DNA of 64,000 nt from Escherichia coli (GCF_024298765.1 NZ_CP101210.1), one strand, 5' to 3'; counted from the first letter of the stretch, positions 37,089-49,053 are shown. Notes: generated by a model not told the origin, from the letters alone. Translations and numbers: made by a program.

Positions 37089-37877
37089 TTACGCCAGTTG
37101 TACGGACACGAACTCATCAGGGTCAGCCAGCAGCATCAGCGGTGCTGACTGAATCATGGTGAACTCACGCGCCGGATCGCCGGTGGTCACCCAGTTTTTC
37201 GGGTAACGGGCAGAGGCGTTAATGCCTTCGCGCTGTGCGTCCGCATCCTGAATGCAGCCATAGGTGCGCAGACCGCGTGCATGAGTGTTACCCAGCACCA
37301 TCGTGTTGTCCGGCAGGAAGTTCTTTTTGACGCCGTTTTCCACGTACTGTCCGGAATACACGACGATGGCCACATCGCCATACATCCCCTTATAGGACAC
37401 CGCTTTACCCAGGTCTTTCACCGCTGTCTCCAGCTCGGAATGAGAGCCGCGACGGGTATCCAGCTTCTCCTTGACGGCGTTGAAGGAACGGAACAGCGCC
37501 CAGCCTTTCGGATCAAACACGATGATATTCACCACGCCGCTGGCGTTCAGCGCGTAGGCTTCGATATCGTCGGTCGGGTCATACGTGGACTTGTCACGCT
37601 TGCTCCACTCCGTGCCGCCGGACTGCGTGATGTTGTTCGCCGCACTGCGGCCCATATCCACCTCAACCGGATCGAAGGCTTCACCGGTCATGGTGTATTT
37701 GCCCTTGAGCACGGCAGAAACTGCCTGCATCTCTTCGACCTGAGCAATGGCCAGCTCTTCGTCACGCATGTTCTGCAGGATGATGCGACGGCGGCGGTAA
37801 GCCGGGTCCGCCAGATTCTGCGGATCTTCATCCGGCAGGCGACGCAGGGTCATCTGCGGATTCACTTCATGCTTGGG
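37089..37877 (-). pseudogene. E: major capsid protein E, C-terminal portion (gene split by island insertion)
   Basis: Encodes ...PKHEVNPQMTLRRLPDEDPQ... to the E C-terminus; upstream in-frame sequence is island DNA with an immediate stop. Confidence 0.9.
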
Positions 37878-37879
37878 TT
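37870..37879. repeat. island left junction direct repeat (att core) tgcttgggtt
   Basis: Identical 10-mer recurs at 48754-48763 at the other E junction. Confidence 0.8.
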
Positions 37880-38013
37880 ACATGAGTCAAATATGAAAGG
37901 ATGTGAATGATTTGATTACGTTTTAGCTATAGAATTGAAATGGAAAATCCTTGAATGCAATACAACGTGCAATACATGGATGAAAACCATCACTCATTTA
38001 ACAAGAGGAATCT

Positions 38014-38919
38014 ATGCGCTCACCCAACAGAATGCATGAACGCTCAACATTTTATAAGTATATGTCGTTGAATACCGCGAAGATTGTTCTTGATTCATGC
38101 AGCCTTAGATGGAGTTCTCCGGTCCTATTTAATGACCCTTTTGATGTTCCAAGAGAAGTTATGCCTGGTATTAACGAAATTAATATTGGCAAAGCTTTAG
38201 CCCGCAAGTTAATAGCGGAGTTGATTACCCCCAGAGAAGACATACAAAATTTAAACCCTAGAATTAGAACAATGCTAAGTGATTTCCAAAAGTCATTTCC
38301 TTTAGGCATACCCGCAGGATTAATTGAAAGATTTCAAGAAATGGTAAACATTCCACCAGTTGGGATTGGCGCTCCTGCGGCAATACAAGAAATGAAAGAT
38401 ATCTGGCGAGGAATGCTTAATAACAGAAGGATTTTGTGTTTATCTGAGAGCCCTATAATCACTCCTATGTGGAATCACTATGCCGATAAATATAAAGGTA
38501 TAGTTATCGAATTTGATTGTGTAGACTTTCTGGATAGCGCTTGGTTAATAGCCAAACCTATGAAATACACAGATGAAATGCCTCTAACTCACACTGCTGA
38601 AGGGATGGCCGAGTTGCTTTTCATGCCAGACAATAAGTCAATTGAATATATCAATAATGAGATAATATTCATAAAAACAGAAGAATGGGCATATGAAAGA
38701 GAGTGGAGAATTTCAACCTACGCTAGGCCAAATAGCACTGGTCAATATAGCGACTTAAAATTTCACCCTTTTGAGTTAAAATCTGTAATACTTGGTCCTC
38801 TTTTTGATGCCAGCGAGTTCGATGAAGTCGCATCACTAGTTAAAATGTATCCAAGAGCGAAATTATTTAAAAGTTCATTTGGGAACGACAGAAAAATATC
38901 CATAGTACCACTACCTTAA
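38014..38919 (+). CDS. hypothetical protein, DUF2971-like (low-GC cargo gene)
   Basis: 301-aa ORF with GAGGA RBS; motifs FYKY...LRWSSPVLFNDPFD, MWNHYADKYKGIVIEFD, EREWRI recalled as DUF2971-like; family assignment from memory only. Confidence 0.6.
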   Translation: MRSPNRMHERSTFYKYMSLNTAKIVLDSCSLRWSSPVLFNDPFDVPREVMPGINEINIGKALARKLIAELITPREDIQNLNPRIRTMLSDFQKSFPLGIPAGLIERFQEMVNIPPVGIGAPAAIQEMKDIWRGMLNNRRILCLSESPIITPMWNHYADKYKGIVIEFDCVDFLDSAWLIAKPMKYTDEMPLTHTAEGMAELLFMPDNKSIEYINNEIIFIKTEEWAYEREWRISTYARPNSTGQYSDLKFHPFELKSVILGPLFDASEFDEVASLVKMYPRAKLFKSSFGNDRKISIVPLP

Positions 38920-38949
38920 AAGGTCAAATGCTTTTGACAAATAAAATCT

Positions 38950-38976
38950 ATCGCCAGTTTTACTGGCGACTTTTAA
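38950..38976 (+). terminator. hairpin terminator between convergent DUF2971-like gene and Nu1-like gene
   Basis: cgccagttttactggcg stem-loop followed by cTTTTaa. Confidence 0.35.
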
Positions 38977-39025
38977 GCAACAAAGAACCACCTAAGCACT
39001 CTTCCTACCTATGGTTTCATTTGTT

Positions 39026-39577
39026 TTAACTTCGCTGATTATCCTTGATATACCTTTCAGCCATATCTGGAATGTTATCTGAGATCTGGTAAGCTCGAAT
39101 AAATGCTTTACTGACCTCCATCTTAATGAAGTCCTGATACCGTTTTTCCATGCCAGGAAACTGTCGACAGATCGCAAGTGGAAGACTATCAATGATTGCT
39201 CCAACTTCCCCAGTTAATTTCGACAAGGCATAAGTCGCAAATGCAGTGTCAATTACCTCACCTGTTTCGCTGGCATTCTTCAGTTCCTGTGCGTCGGCCT
39301 GCGCACGCGTAAGTCGATGGCGTTCGTACTCAATAGTCCCTGGCTGGAGATCTGTCTCGCTGGCCTGCCGCAGTTCTTCAACTTCCCGGCGCAGCTTTTC
39401 GTTCTCAATTTCAGCATCCCTTTCGGCATACCATTTTATGACGGCGGCAGAGTCATAAAGCACCTCATTACCCTTGCCACCGCCTCGCAGAACGGGCATT
39501 CCCTGTTCCTGCCAGTTCTGAATGGTACGGATACTCGCACCGAAAATGTCAGCCAGCTGCTTTTTGTTGACTTCCAT
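39026..39577 (-). CDS. terminase small subunit homolog (Nu1-like chimera)
   Basis: 183 aa; residues 1-~103 essentially identical to the prophage Nu1 at 54397-54942 (winged-HTH cosB-binding domain), C-terminal ~80 aa diverged. Confidence 0.88.
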   Translation of the reverse strand: MEVNKKQLADIFGASIRTIQNWQEQGMPVLRGGGKGNEVLYDSAAVIKWYAERDAEIENEKLRREVEELRQASETDLQPGTIEYERHRLTRAQADAQELKNASETGEVIDTAFATYALSKLTGEVGAIIDSLPLAICRQFPGMEKRYQDFIKMEVSKAFIRAYQISDNIPDMAERYIKDNQRS

Positions 39578-39739
39578 TGTTCATTCCACGGACAAAAACA
39601 GAGAAAGGAAACGACAGAGGCCAAAAAGCTCGCTTTCAGCACCTGTCGTTTCCTTTCTTTTCAGGGGGTATTTTAAATAAAAACATTAAGTTACGACGAA
39701 GAAGAACGGAAACGCCTTAAACCGGAAAATTTTCATAAA

Positions 39740-39800
39740 TAGCGAAAATCCGCGCGCCTGACGCCCCGTAGCCTGTCAGATCGCCGGAAAGGACCCGCCA
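39740..39800. other. cos-like site of the island (variant cosN)
   Basis: Aligns to prophage cos at 55100-55165; the 12-mer equivalent to the cohesive end (39755-39766, cgcctgacgccc) differs at 5/12 positions from aggtcgccgccc. Confidence 0.7.
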
Positions 39801-39822
39801 GCCAGAGCGGGCCCTAATTTCA

Positions 39823-40206
39823 TCAACCAATCAGCTTATAGCGACCATCCCGTGCATTGCGGCGTACACGCTCAATCTTGAGGCATAGCGCCGCATCTGG
39901 CTTTTTTGGGACAGGTACGCGGCAATATTCAGAAGCGCGAGGAATATTATTTATCCAGTCGATCACTTCACTTAAATACCAGGCCTTACGCCCTTCCGTA
40001 ACCTGCACACGCTCCGGGAACTCTCCACTAGCCTCAAGGTTTAGCAGTGTACGCCGACTCAGGGTTGTAATTTCCATCACCTGATTCATATCAACAAGGC
40101 GCTCGCTTAAACACATTTTGTCAGCGATAGCTTTTAATTCCTCTACAGCTGGATTCGGGTACATCATTTCGGCAATTGGCTTAAGGTCATTGTAATCATT
40201 CTGCAT
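39823..40206 (-). CDS. AlpA/MerR-like HTH protein
   Basis: 127-aa ORF; central motif ITTLSRRTLLNLEASGEFPERVQVTEGRKAWYLSEVIDWIN resembles AlpA-family HTH. Confidence 0.6.
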   Translation of the reverse strand: MQNDYNDLKPIAEMMYPNPAVEELKAIADKMCLSERLVDMNQVMEITTLSRRTLLNLEASGEFPERVQVTEGRKAWYLSEVIDWINNIPRASEYCRVPVPKKPDAALCLKIERVRRNARDGRYKLIG

Positions 40207-40217
40207 TGTATCCCCCT

Positions 40218-40559
40218 TTACACACGAGCCAGCGGCTGAACAGAAATACCTGAGCCAACAAACGCTGCAATCTTTACTGACAGTTCTTTTACAGACTCAG
40301 GCCAGTTCAGAGCATCAACATTTAAGACACCTGTCTTATAGACCTGAGCCTGTGTTTTTTTCGCGGTGTCGATTTGTACAGCGGAAACATAAACCGCTTT
40401 ACCTACGCTCGAACCATCCCATACCACCAGTGCACCTGTTGCATCTTCCTGCATCAGTGGCGTAAATGCAGGAATTACCCCTTTATTAGCTGAAAATATC
40501 CCCAGCGTAGTCACCAGTGCTTCAGTGCCAGCCATGAGTTCAGTGTAATGAGTAGCCAT
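40218..40559 (-). CDS. head decoration protein, gpD-like (divergent)
   Basis: 113 aa; shared pattern with lambda D (TPLM...WDG...YK.G...WPE...AF.G..IS) at ~30% identity. Confidence 0.7.
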   Translation of the reverse strand: MATHYTELMAGTEALVTTLGIFSANKGVIPAFTPLMQEDATGALVVWDGSSVGKAVYVSAVQIDTAKKTQAQVYKTGVLNVDALNWPESVKELSVKIAAFVGSGISVQPLARV

Positions 40560-40568
40560 TGCTCCCCC

Positions 40569-41615
40569 TTAGCCAATGCGAACGGTAACAAAACGATTGA
40601 TGCGGGCCGGTATTGGCTGTGGTGCTGAATGTGTCTGCACATATTCAATAGCCGGATCACCAGGCACAATATAGTTTTTCGGTGCAAGTTCGGCTTTAGT
40701 CAGCCCCATTCGGATTAGCTCCGGATCCTGAATACCGCCATAGGCGACAATCCCCTGAAGAGCCGTATTGCCAAGCACCATCAAATCAGGATCAAGGAAA
40801 TGTTTTTCAGTTCCGTCCTCGTCGGTATAACGCCCGCTGTATACAACAATCGCAACATCGCCCATATACCCTTTAAAACTCACCGAATCACCAAGGTCTT
40901 TAAGGGCCGTTTCCAGTTCGGAATTAGAGCCACGACGGGTATCCAGAGCCTCTTTTATCGCTCTGAATGAACGGTATTTCTTCCATACATTACCGCCCAT
41001 AATGATGATATTAGTGACGCCCTCACTAAATTCTGCGTAGCTCTCAATATCATCATTTGGATCAAAAGTTTCTTTATCCTTACCTGACCACTCAGCACCG
41101 CCAGACTGAGTGATGATATTTTGTGGTTTAATATTCCAGTCCAGCTCATAACGTTCAATACCATCGCCCTCAATGATATTTTTCCCCGTTGTGATTGCCT
41201 GAACGGCAAGCCATTCAATACGTGCACGAATAGATTTAGCCTGATTTACAATCGCCTGTTTAACTTTAATATTACGCGCTCCAAAAGCATTGTATTGCTC
41301 AGGTGATACACCAGCAGGGCGCACAGCTAACTTATTTGGATCAATGCTGCTTTTCGGCTTCATATAGCCTGGACGAATTGTTTTTGATTCGTACCCTTCG
41401 TCACGTGAAACTTTACTACCCACCATAGGAGAACAAAACGCTGCAATTGGGATATTTGGATCGTCGATTGTATCAAGAATAATATCGCGCGATTCAAACA
41501 TTACCGAGCGAGTAAAAAACAAACTGGTAAACAACGCATTTAGTTGTTTTTGTACATCTACAGCATTAACCACCTGTACAAGCTGGGTAGGCGAATATAA
41601 ATCAACCATACGCAT
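40569..41615 (-). CDS. major capsid protein, gpE-like (divergent)
   Basis: 348 aa from MRMVDLYSPTQL (RBS AAAGAGG); ~50% identity to prophage E over ITQSGG...DTRRGS.SELETA...GDVAIVVYSG...MVLGNT. Confidence 0.85.
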   Translation of the reverse strand: MRMVDLYSPTQLVQVVNAVDVQKQLNALFTSLFFTRSVMFESRDIILDTIDDPNIPIAAFCSPMVGSKVSRDEGYESKTIRPGYMKPKSSIDPNKLAVRPAGVSPEQYNAFGARNIKVKQAIVNQAKSIRARIEWLAVQAITTGKNIIEGDGIERYELDWNIKPQNIITQSGGAEWSGKDKETFDPNDDIESYAEFSEGVTNIIIMGGNVWKKYRSFRAIKEALDTRRGSNSELETALKDLGDSVSFKGYMGDVAIVVYSGRYTDEDGTEKHFLDPDLMVLGNTALQGIVAYGGIQDPELIRMGLTKAELAPKNYIVPGDPAIEYVQTHSAPQPIPARINRFVTVRIG

Positions 41616-41826
41616 CCTCTTTGCATTCATTAAAAATAATTGTGGATATATGCTATCACCGATATTTGTCATGCGAATACATGCAACCGAGTGCAATGTT
41701 GTATAAAGTTTTGGGATAACAACTTCAGCGCGGATAATTAGTGTTAATATCTTAACTCCCTTTGGTCGGGATTTATGTAGCATGCCGGAAAATTTATTTT
41801 TTTCCGGCCTTTTTTATTGGCAATAT

Positions 41827-42276
41827 TTAAAACGGAATATCATCTCCCCATTGCTCATTATCTCCCACTGGTGGATGGCTTCCTTGCTGATCTGCCTGTT
41901 GTTTTGCTCTGTTCAGTGCGTCAGTAGCCTGACCCTGTTGACCTTTTTTGCCGCCCGGTCGCACCGTTCGCGCACTGATTACGCTGTCTGCGATAACCTG
42001 CCAGCCCTGCCGCGTTTCACCGTTCTGTCCAGTCCACTGGCTCACCTGCATATTACCCGCCACGCTCAGGAGTTCGCCTTTGTGATGCTTTGCCAGCGCG
42101 TCGGCTTGTCTGCCAAACGCCAGGACAGATAACCACATCGTCGCCGTTCCGTCATCTGCCTGGCTGCATGGCAAAGATACCGCCATCCGTGCCAGTGTCA
42201 TGGGTGTTCCCTTGCTGGTATGTTTTACCTGTGGGTCGTCCACCAGCCGCCCGTAAGCTGCTATTTGCGCCGTCAT
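41827..42276 (-). CDS. ssb: single-stranded DNA-binding protein
   Basis: 149-aa ORF with OB-fold pattern, Gly/Gln-rich linker and acidic C-terminal tail ...GDDIPF. Confidence 0.8.
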   Translation of the reverse strand: MTAQIAAYGRLVDDPQVKHTSKGTPMTLARMAVSLPCSQADDGTATMWLSVLAFGRQADALAKHHKGELLSVAGNMQVSQWTGQNGETRQGWQVIADSVISARTVRPGGKKGQQGQATDALNRAKQQADQQGSHPPVGDNEQWGDDIPF

Positions 42277-42287
42277 GCTGCCTGCTC

Positions 42288-42530
42288 TCAGGACTTAATA
42301 TTGATGGTTGTCACTTCCTCCGCTTCGGCAATCTCCCGTTCGGTCAGCGTGGCAAAGTTTGCAGCCGCCGTTGTCATGAATGCGCTTATCAGTTCGGGAT
42401 GTGCTTTCGCGTATCCTTCCCCGGCGTTGCGGTCTATTGCCTTAATCGCCACCCTTAGCCAGTGTTCAGCCATATCAAGGGCGCGGTAATGTGGCTTTAT
42501 ATGTTTGTTCAGTTTTCCTGATGTGTGCAT
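42288..42530 (-). CDS. hypothetical protein
   Basis: 80-aa ORF in operon between origin and ssb. Confidence 0.5.
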   Translation of the reverse strand: MHTSGKLNKHIKPHYRALDMAEHWLRVAIKAIDRNAGEGYAKAHPELISAFMTTAAANFATLTEREIAEAEEVTTINIKS

Positions 42531-42559
42531 TTTTATTTTTACCCCCTCGTTTAAAAAGT

Positions 42560-42810
42560 TTTTTGTGCACCACCACCTTGTCTACCTTGTCTACCTGATT
42601 AGTTATCAGGCCAGTAATGGCGCGGGTTTCAGGGAGGTAGACAGCCCCAAATAGCTGTCTACCTCATCTCTACCCGTCTCCTTACCTGTCTACAAAAATG
42701 GGTAGATAAGGTAGATAACAGGTAGACAGTGAAAAATAGTTATCTACCTGCATTAATGCATTGAAATAAAAGTATTTTATTTCAGTCAGGTAGACAAGGT
42801 AGATAACCAT
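42560..42810. repeat. iteron cluster, putative island origin of replication
   Basis: >12 copies of GGTAGAYA / TRTCTACC in both orientations immediately downstream of the primase gene. Confidence 0.8.
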
Positions 42811-42819
42811 TGCCATTTT

Positions 42820-44571
42820 TTATAAAAACGCATCGCAATCATCAGTAGTCGTTGCGTTGGTCTGCGTGACTCCCTTAACTTTTCGCGTAATATATTCATA
42901 TCCGTAAACTTTCGCCGCTGACCTCATAGCCTTTCCGAACTCATTCACGCTCAAACATTTCCCCTTTCCTGTATATGCCATGAAGGCCATATAGACACGG
43001 TAAAGGCTGTTTCTGGTCGTGTACTTCACGGTGTCACCACCACCGCCCATCATTAGCCCACGAGCTTCCTCCAGAAACTCCAGCGCCGCGCAAAGCTCAA
43101 CAACCGGATCCGTTTGCTGCTTTATTGCCAGAGCTTCATCACCGTCACGCTGTTCCAGTAATAAAGCCCGTGCCTTTTCAGGGTCAGCAAAATTAGCCAG
43201 CAAGCGGCGGATAATTACGGGGATTTCTGCCGCTATCTTTTCCGGTAATTCCTTGTCTTTTTCGTCCTCCCTTACAATGTTGTCGAACCGGAAAATCACC
43301 CGACGGCGTGACACACCTCCGGCCCGTTCGGTAAAGATCATCGGGTCGTTATTGGTTGCCAGTACCACCGCCCTTATTATCGTCGTGAATCGCTTCTCAT
43401 ATTTCGGGTTAATTTCAACGGGATCGCCTCCCGTGATTTTCTTGATGCCCGTGCCTTCCCCCGTATATTTCGGCTGATCGGCAAGGACGATAAGACGACT
43501 CCCGACAACCTGCGCACGCCCTCCTGCATCATCGAGTGATGTCATCTCTGCGCTTACGGTGTTCTGTTTGCCAGCAAGCAGGGTGGCAATATGGGTAAAT
43601 GTACTCTTACCGCTTCCCCCGTCTCCGGTGGCCTCAATGAACATCTGCCAGTCGTACCGGTTCGCCATAATCATGTACAGCGCGGCACATATACGCATCA
43701 TCTTGCGCGGGTCTTTTCCGGCTGCGTGCTCAAGCCATTTATGAAAGTTTGGCGCGTTATCGCGGATGTTCTCCCCTGGTGCTGGTGGCGTGTACTCAAT
43801 GCCGTTGTGCGTGGTGATCCAGTTCTCCGGCGTGTGCGGGGAAAATTCCCCCGTTTTCAGGTCAAGCGCACCATTGGCGAACGGCAGCAAATCGCCGGAC
43901 GGCTCGCCCATTGGTTCGGCAATAACTTTTAACGCTTCAACGGCGTTATTGATCACGCGTTTGCTGAAAGTGGCCCTGTGCTCTGAATAGATCGCCACCA
44001 TTTCGCGGCTCAGCTCCATTGTGCTGATCGGACACCATACCCCGCCGCGCCATACGTGAACGATTTCACTTTCCGGATGCACACAAACGCCATCAAAGCG
44101 CTCGGCAAGCAGCTGCGCGCGCTCACTGTCTGCCATCTGTGAAAGTTGCGCCTTTTGCTTCGTCGGAAGATTAAGCACCAGGCTTTCCCCACGCTCGCAT
44201 TCCTCTTTGAGTCGCGGCAACTGGTCGGATAAATCCACTGGGCTGATGTCAGTAATCCCCGCGTATTCGTGTACGGTCTTCACTCCAGCCACAGCCAGTA
44301 ACGTAACAATCTGCGTCATGCTGTGCTCTGTGATATGTCCTGCGCGGTAAACACGCACACACTGACGATCTTCATCAATGATCCGGTAATCGGTGATGTT
44401 TTTCAGTTGCTCATCAGCCAACACGACAGGCGGCACATCGTCGGCGGCAATATGTTTACCCGCCCATTCCTGCCACTCTTTCGCATGGCTCCACGCATCA
44501 CTACCTGCAAAGATGATTATCTCTGTCAGTCTGTCGCGTGGCTGTTTTTTTAAGTTCGGTGCCAGTTTCAT
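42820..44571 (-). CDS. primase/helicase-like replication protein (P-loop NTPase, D5/P4-alpha-like)
   Basis: 583-aa ORF with Walker A GDGGSGKST and primase C-terminal-like region. Confidence 0.8.
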   Translation of the reverse strand: MKLAPNLKKQPRDRLTEIIIFAGSDAWSHAKEWQEWAGKHIAADDVPPVVLADEQLKNITDYRIIDEDRQCVRVYRAGHITEHSMTQIVTLLAVAGVKTVHEYAGITDISPVDLSDQLPRLKEECERGESLVLNLPTKQKAQLSQMADSERAQLLAERFDGVCVHPESEIVHVWRGGVWCPISTMELSREMVAIYSEHRATFSKRVINNAVEALKVIAEPMGEPSGDLLPFANGALDLKTGEFSPHTPENWITTHNGIEYTPPAPGENIRDNAPNFHKWLEHAAGKDPRKMMRICAALYMIMANRYDWQMFIEATGDGGSGKSTFTHIATLLAGKQNTVSAEMTSLDDAGGRAQVVGSRLIVLADQPKYTGEGTGIKKITGGDPVEINPKYEKRFTTIIRAVVLATNNDPMIFTERAGGVSRRRVIFRFDNIVREDEKDKELPEKIAAEIPVIIRRLLANFADPEKARALLLEQRDGDEALAIKQQTDPVVELCAALEFLEEARGLMMGGGGDTVKYTTRNSLYRVYMAFMAYTGKGKCLSVNEFGKAMRSAAKVYGYEYITRKVKGVTQTNATTTDDCDAFL

Positions 44572-44867
44572 TTTTTGCCCCTGAATGCGTTAATCATGCT
44601 TTTCATTTTCTGGATGTTTCCCCGCGCTTTTTCCCTGCTGATGGGCTTACTGCGGGGTGCGGCATATACCAGGGAAAAATCACGCCGGAACTGATAAACA
44701 GGCATCACGCAGTCATAGCTATACCCCTCACGACGGTAAGTGATGCGCCGTTCTGCCACGCCTTTAATCGTTACCGTGCCGCCGTATTTATCGCGGTAAA
44801 TATCGCCGTTCATAAATTCAGGCCGAGCGGGGCCGCTGGCAATAAAGCCAGAATTTTTCATTTCCAT
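44568..44867 (-). CDS. hypothetical protein
   Basis: 99-aa ORF overlapping primase start by 4 nt. Confidence 0.55.
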   Translation of the reverse strand: MEMKNSGFIASGPARPEFMNGDIYRDKYGGTVTIKGVAERRITYRREGYSYDCVMPVYQFRRDFSLVYAAPRSKPISREKARGNIQKMKSMINAFRGKK

Positions 44868-44884
44868 ATTATTTATTCCTCGAC

Positions 44885-45106
44885 TTAACTCGACTTATTT
44901 GATAGCTGGGCACTATTTATTGCGTCATTGAGTTTTTCTGCTGCTTCATCAATAAGTGACAACAGGCCATAAGCAATATTTGCATCTTCATTGTCATTTA
45001 TGCAATCAAGCCACATATTTAATATTGCTTTTGCTGAATTATTTAAAGTTAATGAACTTTCTGCACATGCTAACAATTTAAAAAAGACTTCCCGTTCTGT
45101 ATTCAT
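44885..45106 (-). CDS. hypothetical protein
   Basis: 73-aa low-GC ORF in the island leftward operon. Confidence 0.5.
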   Translation of the reverse strand: MNTEREVFFKLLACAESSLTLNNSAKAILNMWLDCINDNEDANIAYGLLSLIDEAAEKLNDAINSAQLSNKSS

Positions 45107-45298
45107 TTAATCCCCCACCAGCTTACTTTCTTCCTCAATCAAAAAACTAGCGACACTTCCCGAAAGACGCGCCAGTAGGCTCGCCAGTGCGGATATATCA
45201 GCATCTGTAATTTTGTTCGGGTATACCTCAAGAAGGCGGCAAATAATTTCTGTCTGGTGCGCACGTTCAGCGGCTTCGTGTAATGTGATTTCCTGCAT
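45107..45298 (-). CDS. hypothetical protein
   Basis: 63-aa ORF, start/stop abutting neighbours. Confidence 0.5.
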   Translation of the reverse strand: MQEITLHEAAERAHQTEIICRLLEVYPNKITDADISALASLLARLSGSVASFLIEEESKLVGD

Positions 45299-45483
45299 TA
45301 ATGCACCTCTTTTAATTCATACACTGCTGAAATAATGACTTGTGATAAGCCATATTCTGATGATTCGCTTCTCACCGCAGCAATAGCCGTCTGAACATTA
45401 ACAGCCTTCACATTCTGAGCGATACCAATTGTGTGGCCTATTGGGTTAACAGCTCGGGCAAATACACGGAAGGTTTTAAGCAT
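45298..45483 (-). CDS. hypothetical protein
   Basis: 61-aa ORF in operon. Confidence 0.5.
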   Translation of the reverse strand: MLKTFRVFARAVNPIGHTIGIAQNVKAVNVQTAIAAVRSESSEYGLSQVIISAVYELKEVH

Positions 45484-45673
45484 GACTCACTCCCTGGCGG
45501 ATTTTTGCAGCGAATACAGCAACACAACCGGACGGGCAACGGCTACGCGCTTCGCGTTCCGTCCAGGCGGTTACGTGGATGATTTGAGATTCTCCGGCAC
45601 TCAGTGCCAGAAAACGCCACACAAAGGCCGTTTGTGTGTGTACAAGGTGTGGTATATGATTTACAGCAACCAT
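45476..45673 (-). CDS. hypothetical small protein (first gene of leftward operon)
   Basis: 65 codons from internal ATG preceded by AGGAG at -7; rest of the 243-aa ORF-track call rejected. Confidence 0.35.
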   Translation of the reverse strand: MVAVNHIPHLVHTQTAFVWRFLALSAGESQIIHVTAWTEREARSRCPSGCVAVFAAKIRQGVSHA

Positions 45674-45764
45674 AACGGCTCCTAGTTTACGTTGTTGGTT
45701 AGACGCCCCGTATGTGTTCCCAGCACTGCGGGGCGTTGCTCTTTGTATTTCAACAATCCTTTCG

Positions 45765-45797
45765 GTGTGTTTCATGTTATGAGCGCATGAAACACAC
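45765..45797. promoter_or_regulatory. operator-like inverted repeat in divergent promoter region
   Basis: tgtgtttcatg-N9-catgaaacaca perfect 11-bp arms; third half-site tgaaacacac at 45832-45841. Confidence 0.6.
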
Positions 45798-45863
45798 GTC
45801 AAGGCTTTTTGTATTTCTTTTTTTGTGTATACTGAAACACACCGATGATTAGGAGTTTCAGAA

Positions 45864-46169
45864 ATGGCAACGGCTAACAAAAACGCAAAATCACAACTGA
45901 CAACTGTCAGAGTCCCACTAGATGTTATGCAAGGGATGGAATCCGTTAAGCTGGACGGTGAAAGCAATGCCGGATTTATCGTAACCGCCATGCGCGGTGA
46001 AATCGCCCGCCGCCAGGCAGAAGGAAGCGGAGAAAATCCCCTCGTGTCTTCACTGGATGCCTTAGCTAAGGTCGAACAAATCGGCATCAAGGCAGCGGAG
46101 GAAATCGGGCAACTCGTAGCCGTCGCTCGTGAAGAACTCCAGCGGCGTAAAGCCAAAGAATCTGAATAA
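45864..46169 (+). CDS. small DNA-binding protein, ribbon-helix-helix-like, putative island regulator
   Basis: 101-aa ORF with AGGAG RBS, divergent from the replication/packaging operon; N-terminus LTTVRVPLDVMQGMESV resembles RHH. Confidence 0.55.
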   Translation: MATANKNAKSQLTTVRVPLDVMQGMESVKLDGESNAGFIVTAMRGEIARRQAEGSGENPLVSSLDALAKVEQIGIKAAEEIGQLVAVAREELQRRKAKESE

Positions 46170-46519
46170 TTAGTATCAGCGCCGTGATGTGAGTAACTAC
46201 GGCGCATTGCTATGTAAATACTGGCAATAAACAGAAAAGGTAGTTCTACTCCGAATAATTTTATCTGACACTACTCCTGAACTAACATGCGCTTATCTTA
46301 CAGGATATAAATATAAATCCATAAAATCACGATTAAATAAAGTCGCTCCAAACATAAACCACACCCAACGCTTAACAAGATAGCAACAAACAGGTAAATA
46401 ACTTGCAGAAATATTTATCGCAAGGATTATCATTATTAATGACAAATCACTTTACCAAGTCATTCCCCTCTCTTATCATAAAGAGAAAGTAATAAATAAG
46501 TTAAGGGAGTTAGAATGCT

Positions 46520-47056
46520 ATGAATCTAAAAAAAATAGCCACAAACACAAAAAACAAGATAACAGAAACATTTAATAAACTTATATTAGAGGCATCTAAA
46601 ACCCCCACACAAGATGAAATTAAAATACTTGAGAGAAGGAGTAAGAAGTTTAATTACTCCTTTTTCTCATACGCAGTCACAGGAGCTATAATAGTTTTTT
46701 GCTCTCAACCATTAATTAAATACGCAAACCCAATACTTATTTTATTGAGTGGTCTGTTACTGTCTATCATCATTATCATTCTCAGAATGATTTATATTTC
46801 ACAAGCGAATGCATCATGGACAACCAAAAAACGCTCACATGTACTAGTTCATTTTCTTTCTGCATGTTTCATAGCATCAACATTGACGTTGCTATATCAG
46901 GCTTACGATAATAACATCACACACAAATTGTACTGTAAAAATATACAACAACTTATTGAAAAAAGGATAAAAACAGAAAAAAACATCAGCATATTCAGTG
47001 GGATGCAATGCACCCCGGTATATGATTACTCTTTATTTGGATTTAATCTCTTATAA
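46520..47056 (+). CDS. hypothetical membrane protein (very low GC cargo)
   Basis: 178-aa ORF with ~3 predicted TM helices; RBS GGGAG; AT-rich. Confidence 0.6.
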   Translation: MNLKKIATNTKNKITETFNKLILEASKTPTQDEIKILERRSKKFNYSFFSYAVTGAIIVFCSQPLIKYANPILILLSGLLLSIIIIILRMIYISQANASWTTKKRSHVLVHFLSACFIASTLTLLYQAYDNNITHKLYCKNIQQLIEKRIKTEKNISIFSGMQCTPVYDYSLFGFNLL

Positions 47057-47125
47057 AGAATGTTATTACTGATTTGAGTACAAATTCTCAAATCAGTAAT
47101 TCATAATATTTTATTCTGAGATAAT

Positions 47126-47362
47126 TTAAACTACCCACTCACCTCGAATCCATGCCTGCACTTCTGAAAGACGATATGCAACAGCAGTGGAACCAATCTT
47201 GATCCGCTTAGGAAATTTTCCTTCCTTCTCCAGCTTCCAGCGTGTGCTGTTCGCAAGAGTGGTTAGCTCCCGACATTCTTTCTCACGGATCATTCGGTCA
47301 ATGTTAGGAATGTACTCCAGACCCTTTTTATCAACAATTGCCATTTTTTTCATGTTAACCAA
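47126..47362 (-). CDS. alpA: AlpA-family transcriptional regulator/excisionase
   Basis: 78-aa ORF; motif ELTTLANSTRWKLEKEGKFPKRIKIGSTAVAYRLSEVQAWI; immediately downstream of int. Confidence 0.8.
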   Translation of the reverse strand: MVNMKKMAIVDKKGLEYIPNIDRMIREKECRELTTLANSTRWKLEKEGKFPKRIKIGSTAVAYRLSEVQAWIRGEWVV

Positions 47363-48590
47363 CCTTTTGTTTGAGGATTGTCACTTTTGAATCAGCACCT
47401 GCGATGCTATTGAGATATGTAGTCCAGAGTTCCAGAGCATCCAGTTTTTTAGCCATAAACTTACTCCGGTTGTAAACACCTGCCACGCCAGGTAGCGCAT
47501 GGCCTAACAGTTGTTCTACTACATAAAATTCAACACCGAGATCACTTAGATGAGTAGATAGCGTTCTTCTAAGGTCGTGTAGTGACCATTGTTTTTCATG
47601 GCCCAAACGTTTACCGATTTTCCCCCCAATCTTGCTTACGCTTTCTCTAATTCGCAGACTTCCCAGCACATAACCAGTATGTTTTGTCTCTTCGTGAACA
47701 TCCGTTACCCACTGTCGTAGAATTTCAGGTACTGGTCTGACGATTTCAACACCAGTTTTTGAGTGATCTTTTGGTACAGTCCAAACCCAACTTTCGAGAT
47801 CCCATTCGCTCCATTCTGATAATCGGGCTTCACTCATTCGACATCCAAATACTGTACAAAGCACAAACATTTTTCGCGTGTATTCAGACATTAGTTTTAA
47901 ATCAGGCTCGACAAAAATTGCCTTCCAGAGCTGGCCGAGTTCGGCTTCATCCAGAACCCGATCCCGCTTACCTGCAATCTGCCCCACATCACTCATGCGC
48001 AAATCCTTTAAAGCATCACACGTCGCGTACTGGCGTACCCGACAAAAACGAAGAGCTAATTTAGTGTCAGAAAAAACATACGCCGCCATAACTGGTGCAT
48101 TACGTTTAATTCGGTCAAAACAGTCCAGCCATTCATATAGGTGAGTGTCATTTACGGGCAAATGACCGATATAGGGAAAGATATGCTTTCGAAATCTGCC
48201 AAGCGTTACAGCATGAGTTTTACGACGCACCTTACAGTAATTTTCATACCAGTAATTTAGTGCATCCTCCACTGTAACTGGCTTTAAGCGTTCTTCAGCC
48301 TGAATCTTAATCTGGATACGCGGATCACGTTTGTCAGCCAACCAACCACGGCACTCGTCGCGCTTTTCCCTTGCCTGTTTGAGTGACATATCAGGATATT
48401 TACCCAACGTTAGCCAGACCGGAGCAGCCCGGCCACCTGCTAACCTGTAGAAGAAAACAAAGCTCACAGCCCCTTTAGTACTCACACGAATAGAAAGCCC
48501 CTTTCCATCAGCAATGGTGATCTGCTTTTCTCTGGGTTTCCCCAGATATCCTTTAAGCGCTTTGTCGCTCAGTTTGTTCTCGCCAGCCAT
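47355..48590 (-). CDS. int: tyrosine site-specific integrase (P4-type)
   Basis: 411 aa from MAGENKLSDKALKGY; catalytic R...HDLRRT...LLGH...Y motifs; adjacent to right island junction. Confidence 0.9.
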   Translation of the reverse strand: MAGENKLSDKALKGYLGKPREKQITIADGKGLSIRVSTKGAVSFVFFYRLAGGRAAPVWLTLGKYPDMSLKQAREKRDECRGWLADKRDPRIQIKIQAEERLKPVTVEDALNYWYENYCKVRRKTHAVTLGRFRKHIFPYIGHLPVNDTHLYEWLDCFDRIKRNAPVMAAYVFSDTKLALRFCRVRQYATCDALKDLRMSDVGQIAGKRDRVLDEAELGQLWKAIFVEPDLKLMSEYTRKMFVLCTVFGCRMSEARLSEWSEWDLESWVWTVPKDHSKTGVEIVRPVPEILRQWVTDVHEETKHTGYVLGSLRIRESVSKIGGKIGKRLGHEKQWSLHDLRRTLSTHLSDLGVEFYVVEQLLGHALPGVAGVYNRSKFMAKKLDALELWTTYLNSIAGADSKVTILKQKVG

Positions 48591-48752
48591 TTTTAGCCCC
48601 AAAAAGCAATACAAGCTGCAATACAGAGATGATTGCAACACACAGATAACGAGGAAAATTCAGTGAAAGCACCAGATAAACTTATTCTTTATTATCAAAA
48701 GATTAAGTGTAAAAACCAGCAACTACACGAAAGCCTCAGAAAGCCATGCTAA

Positions 48753-48998
48753 GTGCTTGGGTTTGACATATCCCGGCGTAAATTCAGAGGTGGAGCCGCC
48801 ACGGGAACGGATAACCTCACCGGAAACAATCGGCGAAACGTACAGCGCCATGTTTACCAGTCCCGGAATTTGTGAGAGATAGACTTTCTCCGTAGTGAAG
48901 GGATAGCTCTCACGGAAAAAGAGACGCAGAAACAGCGGATCAAACTTAAATTTCTGCTCATTTGCCGCCAGCAGCTGGGCGGTTGTGTACATCGACAT
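48753..48998 (-). pseudogene. E: major capsid protein E, N-terminal portion (82 codons) truncated by island
   Basis: MSMYTTAQLLAANEQKFKFDPLFLRL...GYVKPKH then island-derived LAWLSEAFV and stop. Confidence 0.9.
48754..48763. repeat. island right junction direct repeat (att core) tgcttgggtt
   Basis: Identical to 37870-37879. Confidence 0.8.
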
Positions 48999-49053
48999 AA
49001 AAAAATCCCGTAAAAAAAGCCGCACAGGCGGCCTTTAGTGATGAAGGGTAAAG

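What the first reader, a model, noticed from the sequence alone, without database searches (positions are those of the whole stretch)
42288..44571. Island replication module: primase/helicase-like gene, iteron origin and own SSB
A 583-aa P-loop protein (GDGGSGKST) is followed by more than 12 GGTAGAYA iterons in both orientations (42560-42810) and an SSB with the canonical acidic ...DIPF tail. Autonomous replication after excision is what distinguishes a satellite from a passive insertion.
Basis: partly seen in the sequence, partly recalled or inferred. Interest (0 to 1): 0.4.

Follow-up and report, generated by a model that had tools for sequence, protein, structure and literature searches.

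The report
PICI satellite replication module (Rep, ori, SSB)
This is the self-replication cassette of a known type of E. coli phage satellite: an origin-binding helicase, its repeat-studded origin and an SSB. It is a close relative of a cassette already shown experimentally to drive replication, so it is real but ordinary.

Summary
The features exist, with small corrections. The 583-aa P-loop protein is at 42820-44571 (-). The array has 10 exact and 2 one-mismatch GGTAGAYA iterons at 42579-42805, not more than 12. The DDIPF-tailed SSB is at 41827-42276, just outside the stated coordinates. The ORF at 42288-42530 is a conserved 80-aa protein of unknown function.

The protein matches phage P4 alpha without its primase: a D5-type SF3 helicase plus the alpha origin-binding winged helix, 41% identical to alpha residues 321-762. 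It has no zinc ribbon, Toprim or AEP domain.

The module is syntenic with the pri-rep-ori-ssb module of EcCICFT073: 81% identical Rep, same iterons at the same positions. That rep+ori segment was shown to replicate a plasmid (PMC6092414).

The island sits inside the lambda-type capsid gene E of a prophage. This is the published helper-embedded PICI "capE" configuration (PMC10111431).

Comparison adds one detail. The helicase, DNA-binding domain and origin move as a cassette, and iteron sequence tracks the DNA-binding domain. The N-terminal domain recombines independently.

Verdict: interpretation supported, "primase" label not supported, already known, low interest.

The parts
44568..44867 (-). 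DUF4222 protein (99 aa). Its stop overlaps the rep start by 4 nt, so it is probably translationally coupled. It is a conserved upstream neighbour of rep.
   Evidence: Pfam DUF4222, E 9e-24. The same DUF4222-rep adjacency is seen in CFT073, BH100N, ATCC 25922, O22:H8, O157:H7, NRG857c and the distant locus L009.
42820..44571 (-). Rep: 583-aa origin-binding SF3 helicase, P4 alpha-like but without the primase domain.
   Evidence: Pfam D5_N 152-281, DUF5906 315-416, Pox_D5 517-575. TIGR01613 scores 104.9 bits, just under its 108.7 cutoff. 41% identity to P4 alpha aa 321-762. 81% identity to EcCICFT073 Rep. AF2 model pLDDT 89; best structural match is SaPI5 PriRep 7OLA (Foldseek E 1e-17).
44167..44571 (-). 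Rep N-terminal domain (aa 1-135): alpha/beta fold of unknown function that takes the place of the P4 alpha primase. It recombines independently of the rest of the gene.
43114..44154 (-). D5_N collar plus SF3 ATPase core (aa 140-486), including Walker A GDGGSGKST at 43600-43626.
   Evidence: dN/dS is 0.05 against CFT073, with dS 0.33.
42823..43113 (-). C-terminal winged-helix origin-binding domain (aa 487-583).
   Evidence: phmmer hit to 1KA8, the P4 alpha origin-binding domain, E 2.3e-7 over aa 487-578. The model shows helices 523-534 and 542-555 followed by a three-strand wing at 562-575.
42531..42819 (-). ori: the 289-bp intergenic region immediately 3' of rep.
   Evidence: It aligns over its full length with the EcCICFT073 ori (75% identity) and with five other variants. 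No sigma-70-like promoter or intrinsic terminator was found. No DnaA box, IHF site or GATC was found.
42579..42805 (.). Iteron array of 12 copies of GGTAGAYA/TRTCTACC (10 exact). It includes two head-to-head dyads (42635-42664 and 42720-42749) and two tandem pairs at the outer ends in inverted orientation (42579-42595 and 42789-42805).
   Evidence: The 6-bp core is more often invariant across 7 origin variants than the rest of the region: 51 of 72 core columns against 74 of 225 other columns, Fisher p 2e-8.
42749..42788 (.). AT-rich stretch (about 77% A+T), the candidate DNA-unwinding element, flanked by iterons pointing in opposite directions.
   Evidence: GC is 0.225-0.275 in 42740-42799. 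The maximum-AT 40-mer starts at 42753. An imperfect 37-nt palindrome spans 42735-42811 (I1). The same element sits in the same place in all aligned origins.
42288..42530 (-). Conserved 80-aa ORF of unknown function between ori and ssb, with a strong conserved ribosome-binding site (GAGGGGG).
   Evidence: phrog_1231, E 8.5e-46. 80-84% identical in four related islands. No Pfam, NCBIfam, PADLOC or PDB match.
41827..42276 (-). Island-encoded SSB (149 aa): OB fold plus the host-type acidic tip DDIPF.
   Evidence: Pfam SSB and TIGR00621. 28% identical to E. coli SSB, with the W54, F60 and W88 equivalents and the tip conserved. PDB SSB hits down to E 4e-11.

Best explanation
This is the replicon of an EcCICFT073-type Gram-negative phage-inducible chromosomal island (PICI), here in its helper-embedded form inside prophage capsid gene E.

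Proposed mechanism, with the basis for each step:
1. Rep binds the GGTAGAYA iterons in the 289-bp region just 3' of its own gene through its C-terminal winged-helix domain. This is shown by homology to P4 alpha and SaPI Rep, and by iteron/CTD co-variation.
2. Rep assembles as SF3 hexamers on either side of the AT-rich stretch at 42749-42788, which is flanked by oppositely oriented iterons. It then melts that stretch and loads itself as the replicative 3'-5' helicase. This is inferred from the SaPI Rep 'self-loading helicase' work.
3. Rep has no primase domain and the island encodes no primase. Primers and the polymerase must therefore come from the host (DnaG, Pol III) or the helper phage. This is inference.
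4. The island SSB coats the unwound DNA. Through its host-type DDIPF tip it can engage the host SSB-interactome, for example DnaG and the chi subunit. This is inferred from established E. coli SSB biology. The SSB is accessory, not essential.
5. Expression follows the unidirectional int-alpA-...-rep operon after helper induction. This is drawn from the PICI literature.
For: - Domain content and homology: D5_N, DUF5906 and Pox_D5; 41% identity to P4 alpha 321-762; CTD matches the 1KA8 origin-binding domain; fold matches SaPI5 PriRep 7OLA and poxvirus D5/E5 helicases.
- Iterons are 10 exact copies confined to 227 bp, against 1.9 expected in 64 kb.
- Synteny, 81% Rep identity and identical iteron type and positions with EcCICFT073. 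Its rep+ori was shown to replicate a plasmid, and its pri-rep deletion cut transfer about 100-fold (PMC6092414).
- The ori architecture matches the published rule of iterons immediately 3' of rep, an AT-rich region, and at least two iterons on each side in opposite orientation (PMC9371898).
- Iteron cores are preferentially conserved (p 2e-8).
- Iteron type switches with the CTD. TGTTCACC goes with P4, NRG857c 11capE and locus L009. GGTAGAYA goes with the window and the CFT073 group. GGTAGAGG goes with the O157:H7 and O22:H8 islands, whose recognition helix carries N544A and G547S.
- The helicase core is under strong purifying selection, dN/dS 0.05.
- The module is 99.6-99.8% identical in many genomes; 326 of 5426 complete E. 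coli genomes carry at least 80% of it.
Against: - No experiment exists on this allele.
- In the published capE helper-embedded PICI (11capE), attP:attB stayed near 1 in two of three inductions. Post-excision replication may therefore be weak, or masked by passive replication within the helper (PMC10111431). That island carries a different Rep/ori allele.
- The AT-rich element is not central. Two iterons lie on the rep side and nine or ten on the other.
- How priming occurs without a primase domain is unknown.
- The role of the SSB is inferred only. Sister islands with the same Rep lack it.
Confidence: 0.85

Rival explanations
1. The repeat array is mainly a transcriptional operator or promoter region for the downstream genes (80-aa ORF, ssb, capsid genes), bound by a regulator such as AlpA or the island HTH protein. 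On this reading it is not an origin.
For: The array lies directly upstream of a gene with a strong, conserved ribosome-binding site. Iteron-binding initiators often autoregulate.
Against: No sigma-70-like promoter was found in 42200-43000. The same repeats in EcCICFT073 are required in cis for Rep-dependent plasmid replication. The repeat sequence co-varies with the Rep CTD, not with alpA or int: NRG857c has the same int/alpA at 97.5% identity but different iterons. A secondary regulatory role is not excluded.
Confidence: 0.05
2. The array is a P4 crr-like cis-acting enhancer that needs a second, distant iteron-containing origin, as in phage P4. On its own it is not a sufficient origin.
For: Its position immediately 3' of the alpha-like gene is exactly that of P4 crr. 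It also contains internally duplicated units (85-88 bp spacing), as crr contains 120-bp repeats.
Against: No second cluster exists. All exact iterons in 64 kb lie in this one array, and one-mismatch hits in the island are at chance density. The EcCICFT073 rep gene plus the putative ori site next to it is sufficient for plasmid replication.
Confidence: 0.04
3. The module is a largely idle relic. In the helper-embedded configuration the island is copied passively as part of the replicating prophage, and its own replicon contributes little.
For: In 11capE/61icd the composite replicates before the satellite excises. Satellite attP:attB was near 1 in 2 of 3 repeats (PMC10111431).
Against: All ORFs are intact. 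The helicase is under strong purifying selection (dN/dS 0.05 at dS 0.33). Iteron cores are selectively conserved. The cassette has been exchanged between islands as a functional unit. The EcCICFT073 pri-rep deletion lowers transfer about 100-fold.
Confidence: 0.08

Closest known systems
EcCICFT073 pri-rep-ori module (Gram-negative PICI; Fillol-Salom et al. 2018, PMC6092414)
   Same: Same gene order: DUF4222, Rep, 288-bp ori, small ORF, SSB, then capsid and decoration homologues. Rep is 81% identical overall and 97% in the helicase. The iteron (GGTAGAYA) is identical at the same 11 positions, with the same AT-rich element.
   Different: The N-terminal 135 aa of Rep are only 43% identical and the CTD 82%. 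The integration site and integrase differ: here the site is inside prophage capsid gene E, whereas in CFT073 the island lies next to phoQ among chromosomal genes.
HE-PICI 11capE of E. coli NRG857c (Mageeney et al. 2023, PMC10111431)
   Same: Same integrase and alpA (97.5% nt), same att site in capsid gene E, and same SSB, capsid, decoration and HTH block (98% nt). The replication module has the same layout.
   Different: The Rep/ori segment is a different allele. Rep is 47% identical (CTD 33%), and the origin carries P4-type TGTTCACC iterons in the same architecture. The accessory cargo also differs.
Phage P4 alpha protein with ori/crr
   Same: The helicase and the origin-binding winged helix are homologous (41% over 443 aa; 1KA8). 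An octamer iteron occurs in both orientations. An iteron cluster lies immediately 3' of the gene, like crr. The iteron differs from the P4 type 1 repeat only at two central bases, GGTAGACA against GGTGAACA.
   Different: It lacks the 320-aa zinc-ribbon/Toprim primase of alpha and has an unrelated 135-aa domain instead. It has a single iteron cluster rather than ori plus crr 4.5 kb apart.
SaPI Rep / PriRep self-loading SF3 helicases (Qiao et al. 2022, PMC9371898; PDB 7OLA)
   Same: It is the best structural match (Foldseek E 1e-17). It has a D5_N + SF3 ATPase + C-terminal WHD architecture. Its origin is 6-12 iterons 3' of rep around an AT-rich region.
   Different: Structural-alignment sequence identity is only about 18%. 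SaPIs have a primase upstream of or fused to Rep; none is present here. SaPI iterons are penta- or hexamers.

Membership tests
Gram-negative PICI replicon (EcCICFT073 type) | Rep homologous to EcCICFT073 Pri-Rep | tested here: met
   81% identity over the full length, BLASTP E 0.
Gram-negative PICI replicon (EcCICFT073 type) | [quoted passage not shown] | tested here: met
   Iterons at 42579-42805 and an AT-rich stretch at 42749-42788. The region aligns with the CFT073 ori, with iterons at the same positions.
Gram-negative PICI replicon (EcCICFT073 type) | Island context: int, alpA and rep transcribed unidirectionally, about 10-20 kb, no lysis or tail genes | tested here: met
   int 47355-48641, alpA 47126-47362 and rep are all on the - strand. 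The island is about 10.9 kb between att cores at 37870 and 48754.
Gram-negative PICI replicon (EcCICFT073 type) | rep + ori drives Rep-dependent plasmid replication | not testable with these tools
   Shown only for EcCICFT073 (PMC6092414).
Helper-embedded PICI (capE group) | [quoted passage not shown] | tested here: met
   Capsid gene E is split into 48723-49025 (N-terminal part) and 37089-37865 (C-terminal part), both on the - strand like the island genes. There is a 10-bp direct repeat TGCTTGGGTT at both junctions. The configuration is the same in strains 13P477T and NRG857c.
Phage P4 alpha primase-helicase | SF3 helicase plus C-terminal origin-binding winged helix | tested here: met
   41% identity to alpha 321-762; 1KA8 E 2.3e-7.
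Phage P4 alpha primase-helicase | N-terminal zinc ribbon + Toprim primase (EGYATA and DxD motifs) | tested here: not met
Phage P4 alpha primase-helicase | Bipartite cis elements: ori and crr, both with TGTTCACC type 1 repeats | tested here: not met
   There is a single cluster, and the iteron is TRTCTACC.
SaPI-type self-loading Rep helicase | D5_N + SF3 ATPase + C-terminal WHD fold | tested here: met
   Foldseek 7OLA E 1.2e-17, TM 0.51/0.67; phmmer 7OLA E 4e-14.
SaPI-type self-loading Rep helicase | Primase encoded upstream of, or fused to, rep | tested here: not met
   No primase domain was found in Rep or in the nine neighbouring island ORFs scanned against Pfam, seven of them also against NCBIfam (44568-48641, the 80-aa ORF and ssb). 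The downstream capsid, decoration, HTH, terminase-like and DUF2971 ORFs were not scanned; their names come from RefSeq annotation of near-identical islands. The upstream neighbour of rep is a DUF4222 protein.
SaPI-type self-loading Rep helicase | 3'-5' helicase activity and ATP-independent origin binding and melting | not testable with these tools
   Biochemistry exists only for SaPI Reps (PMC9371898).
Bacterial SSB | OB-fold ssDNA-binding domain plus acidic C-terminal tip (D-D/N-I-P-F) | tested here: met
   Pfam SSB E 7e-15. TIGR00621 scores 65.5 bits, above its 53.95 cutoff. The W54, F60 and W88 equivalents and the DDIPF tip are conserved.

The most novel reading that the evidence does not exclude
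Probability: 0.3. Interest if true: 0.35.

Novelty: already known. Interest (0 to 1): 0.15.

Why it matters
It confirms that the island is a self-replicating satellite (a PICI) rather than a passive insertion, which is useful for annotating the window.

It adds little new biology. The replicon type was defined and tested in EcCICFT073, and the embedded-in-capsid-gene configuration was published in 2023.

Three minor points are of use:
- The RefSeq name 'DNA primase family protein' is misleading for this protein.
- The helicase-CTD-ori unit behaves as an exchangeable cassette whose iteron sequence tracks the DNA-binding domain. This gives three natural specificity classes for testing initiator-iteron recognition.
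- How a primase-less SF3 helicase gets primed in E. coli is an open but modest question.

Tried and rejected
- Promoter and terminator scan of 42200-43000: none found.
- DnaA box, IHF, Fis-like and GATC motif scan of the ori: none found. Iterons of the form TTATCTACC match the DnaA box at only 7 of 9 positions.
- Rfam scan of the whole island at E up to 0.1: no RNA family.
- PADLOC on Rep, the 80-aa ORF, SSB and DUF4222: nothing meaningful.
- The 80-aa ORF: no Pfam, NCBIfam or PDB-profile match. Its function remains unknown.
- Search for a second iteron cluster (a P4 ori/crr analogue): none.
- Distant homologue L012 (P0035): no evident iterons in the short 166-bp region 3' of rep. L010 is ambiguous.
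- The repeat finder across the two island junctions cannot compare separate regions. A script was used instead.

Full report
**Observation**

The ORF list and sequence show, all on the minus strand:
- a 99-aa DUF4222 protein at 44568-44867;
- a 583-aa ORF at 42820-44571 containing GDGGSGKST;
- a 289-bp intergenic region at 42531-42819;
- an 80-aa ORF at 42288-42530;
- a 149-aa ORF at 41827-42276 ending WGDDIPF.

GGTAGAYA occurs 10 times exactly in the 64-kb window, and all 10 lie in 42579-42805, on both strands. The chance expectation is 1.9, and none of 100 shuffles reached 10. Allowing one mismatch adds two sites inside the array (42667, 42687). Hits elsewhere are then at chance level.

So there are 12 copies, not more than 12. 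The SSB is real but lies just outside the stated coordinates. The ORF inside them at 42288-42530 is a different, conserved protein of unknown function.

**What the 583-aa protein is**

- Pfam finds D5_N, DUF5906 (the SF3 P-loop) and Pox_D5. TIGR01613 'primase_Cterm' scores just under its cutoff.
- By sequence the protein hits two solved structures: SaPI5 PriRep (7OLA, E 4e-14) and the origin-binding winged-helix domain of phage P4 alpha (1KA8, E 2e-7, aa 487-578).
- Residues 137-578 are 41% identical to P4 alpha residues 321-762.
- A confident AlphaFold model (pLDDT 89) matches SaPI5 PriRep best, then the poxvirus D5/E5 helicases.

The first 135 residues have no counterpart in alpha.
- Long homologues of about 770-830 aa carry Zn_Ribbon_Prim and Toprim_3 domains with EGYATA and DxD motifs in that position. 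The roughly 580-620-aa forms, including this one, do not.
- The N-domain folds confidently as an alpha/beta domain (pLDDT 90.8).
- Foldseek, hhalign and Pfam give nothing.
- The family has no invariant acidic residue.

I conclude that the protein is a helicase/initiator without a recognisable primase. None of the other island ORFs scanned against Pfam or NCBIfam is a primase; the downstream capsid, decoration, HTH, terminase-like and DUF2971 ORFs were not scanned and are named from RefSeq annotation of near-identical islands. That helicases of this family are routinely mis-annotated as primases has already been pointed out (PMC10061031).

**What the module is**

A search of complete E. coli genomes finds the 3.1-kb module at 99.6-99.8% identity in many strains. 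At least 80% of it is present in 326 of 5426 genomes, essentially always on chromosomes.

The reference island EcCICFT073 has the same order: DUF4222, Rep, 288-bp gap, small ORF, SSB, then capsid and decoration homologues. Its Rep is 81% identical. Its gap carries the same GGTAGAYA iterons at the same positions around the same AT-rich stretch.

Fillol-Salom et al. 2018 reported three relevant results (PMC6092414):
- EcCICFT073 rep plus this region maintains a temperature-sensitive plasmid at the restrictive temperature, while rep or ori mutants do not;
- deleting pri-rep lowers island transfer about 100-fold.

The origin rule worked out for SaPIs also fits. That rule is 6-12 iterons just 3' of rep, an AT-rich region, at least two iterons on each side in opposite orientation, Rep binding through a C-terminal winged helix, and a self-loading 3'-5' helicase (PMC9371898). 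Here the tandem pair 42789-42805 and the iteron at 42741-42748 point away from the AT-rich 42749-42788. An imperfect 37-nt palindrome spans the element.

**Comparative support for Rep-iteron recognition**

Seven origin variants are about 75-80% identical overall. In their alignment the 6-bp iteron cores are far more often invariant than the rest: 51 of 72 columns against 74 of 225, p 2e-8.

Iteron type changes together with the Rep C-terminal domain:
- The O157:H7 and O22:H8 islands use GGTAGAGG and carry N544A and G547S at the start of the predicted recognition helix.
- The published 11capE island of NRG857c has a Rep whose CTD is only 33% identical. Its origin has the same architecture but carries P4-type TGTTCACC iterons at each site.
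- A 48%-identical metagenomic homologue also has TGTTCAC iterons around an AT-rich stretch.
- P4 itself has TGTTCACC repeats in crr, immediately 3' of alpha.

The window iteron differs from the P4 repeat only at two central bases.

**Mosaicism**

Against NRG857c 11capE, the window island is 97.5-98% identical over int-alpA (45877-48794) and over the segment from the 80-aa ORF through SSB and the capsid genes (39540-42483). It is unrelated or weakly related over 42484-45876.

Within Rep, the three parts have different affinities:

| Rep part | Identity to CFT073 | Identity to NRG857c |
|---|---|---|
| N-domain (aa 1-135) | 43% | 64% |
| Helicase (aa 140-486) | 97% (dN/dS 0.05) | 47% |
| CTD (aa 487-583) | 82% | 33% |

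The helicase-CTD-ori unit therefore moves as a cassette, and the N-domain is exchanged separately.

**SSB and the 80-aa ORF**

The SSB is 28% identical to E. coli SSB. It keeps the aromatic ssDNA-binding residues and the DDIPF tip. Two sister islands with the same Rep lack both the SSB and the 80-aa ORF. [quoted passage not shown] The SSB is therefore an accessory part of the module.

**Context**

The island is about 10.9 kb and lies between 10-bp direct repeats at 37870 and 48754. It interrupts a lambda-type major capsid gene E and is co-oriented with it. This is the helper-embedded PICI configuration described for 11capE, which was extended to 491 further elements. That paper already lists Primase, SSB and DUF5906 proteins next to the mapped origin as the 'Replication' zone (PMC10111431). 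It also reports that 11capE attP:attB stayed near 1 in two of three inductions. Vigorous post-excision replication should therefore not be assumed for embedded islands.

**Negative results**

- No promoter-like or terminator-like site in 42200-43000.
- No DnaA, IHF or GATC motif in the origin.
- No Rfam family in the island.
- No defence-system match.
- No second iteron cluster.

**Verdict**

The finding is correct in substance and its interpretation is supported. It describes a known and experimentally characterised type of replicon in a known type of satellite. The 'primase' label is not supported. Interest is low.

Noticed in passing
window 37866-48762 (junctions 37870-37879 and 48754-48763); capsid gene fragments 37089-37865 and 48723-49025: [quoted passage not shown] This is the published 'helper-embedded PICI' capE configuration (PMC10111431). 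The same arrangement is seen in strains 13P477T and NRG857c.
   Followed up: yes
window 42484-45876 compared with L014:19342-30409 (NRG857c 11capE): Relative to the published 11capE, the backbone is 97.5-98% identical but the segment from the small ORFs through DUF4222, Rep and ori is replaced. Rep is a three-part mosaic: an 11capE-like N-domain and a CFT073-like helicase and CTD. The origin switches from TGTTCACC to GGTAGAYA iterons.
   Followed up: yes
L007:2629-2920 and L008:2624-2915 (O22:H8 and O157:H7 islands): A third iteron class, GGTAGAGG, sits at the same origin positions. It goes with two substitutions (N544A, G547S) at the start of the predicted recognition helix of an otherwise about 96% identical Rep. 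These islands lack the 80-aa ORF and the SSB. Only two related examples were examined.
   Followed up: partly
window 42610-42631: A non-iteron block inside the origin (CTGAAAsCCGCGCCATTACTGGC on the coding strand) is nearly invariant in all seven GGTAGA-type origins. It is absent from the TGTTCACC-type origin of NRG857c. Its function is unknown.
   Followed up: no
window 44568-44867: A DUF4222 gene overlaps the rep start codon by 4 nt. It precedes rep in every related island examined, including a 48%-identical metagenomic one (L009). It may be an uncharacterised partner in the replication module.
   Followed up: partly
window 38014-41783: Downstream of ssb the island carries its own major capsid homologue (40569-41783), head decoration homologue (40218-40559), an HTH protein (39823-40206), a Nu1-like small terminase (39026-39577) and a DUF2971 protein on the opposite strand (38014-38919). 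This cargo end differs between otherwise near-identical islands: NRG857c has HEPN and DUF262 genes, and 13P477T has DUF3892.
   Followed up: partly
window 42701-42717, 42740-42748 and 42798-42806: Iterons of the form TTATCTACC match the DnaA box consensus TTATCCACA at 7 of 9 positions. This is probably coincidental. No true DnaA box is present.
   Followed up: no
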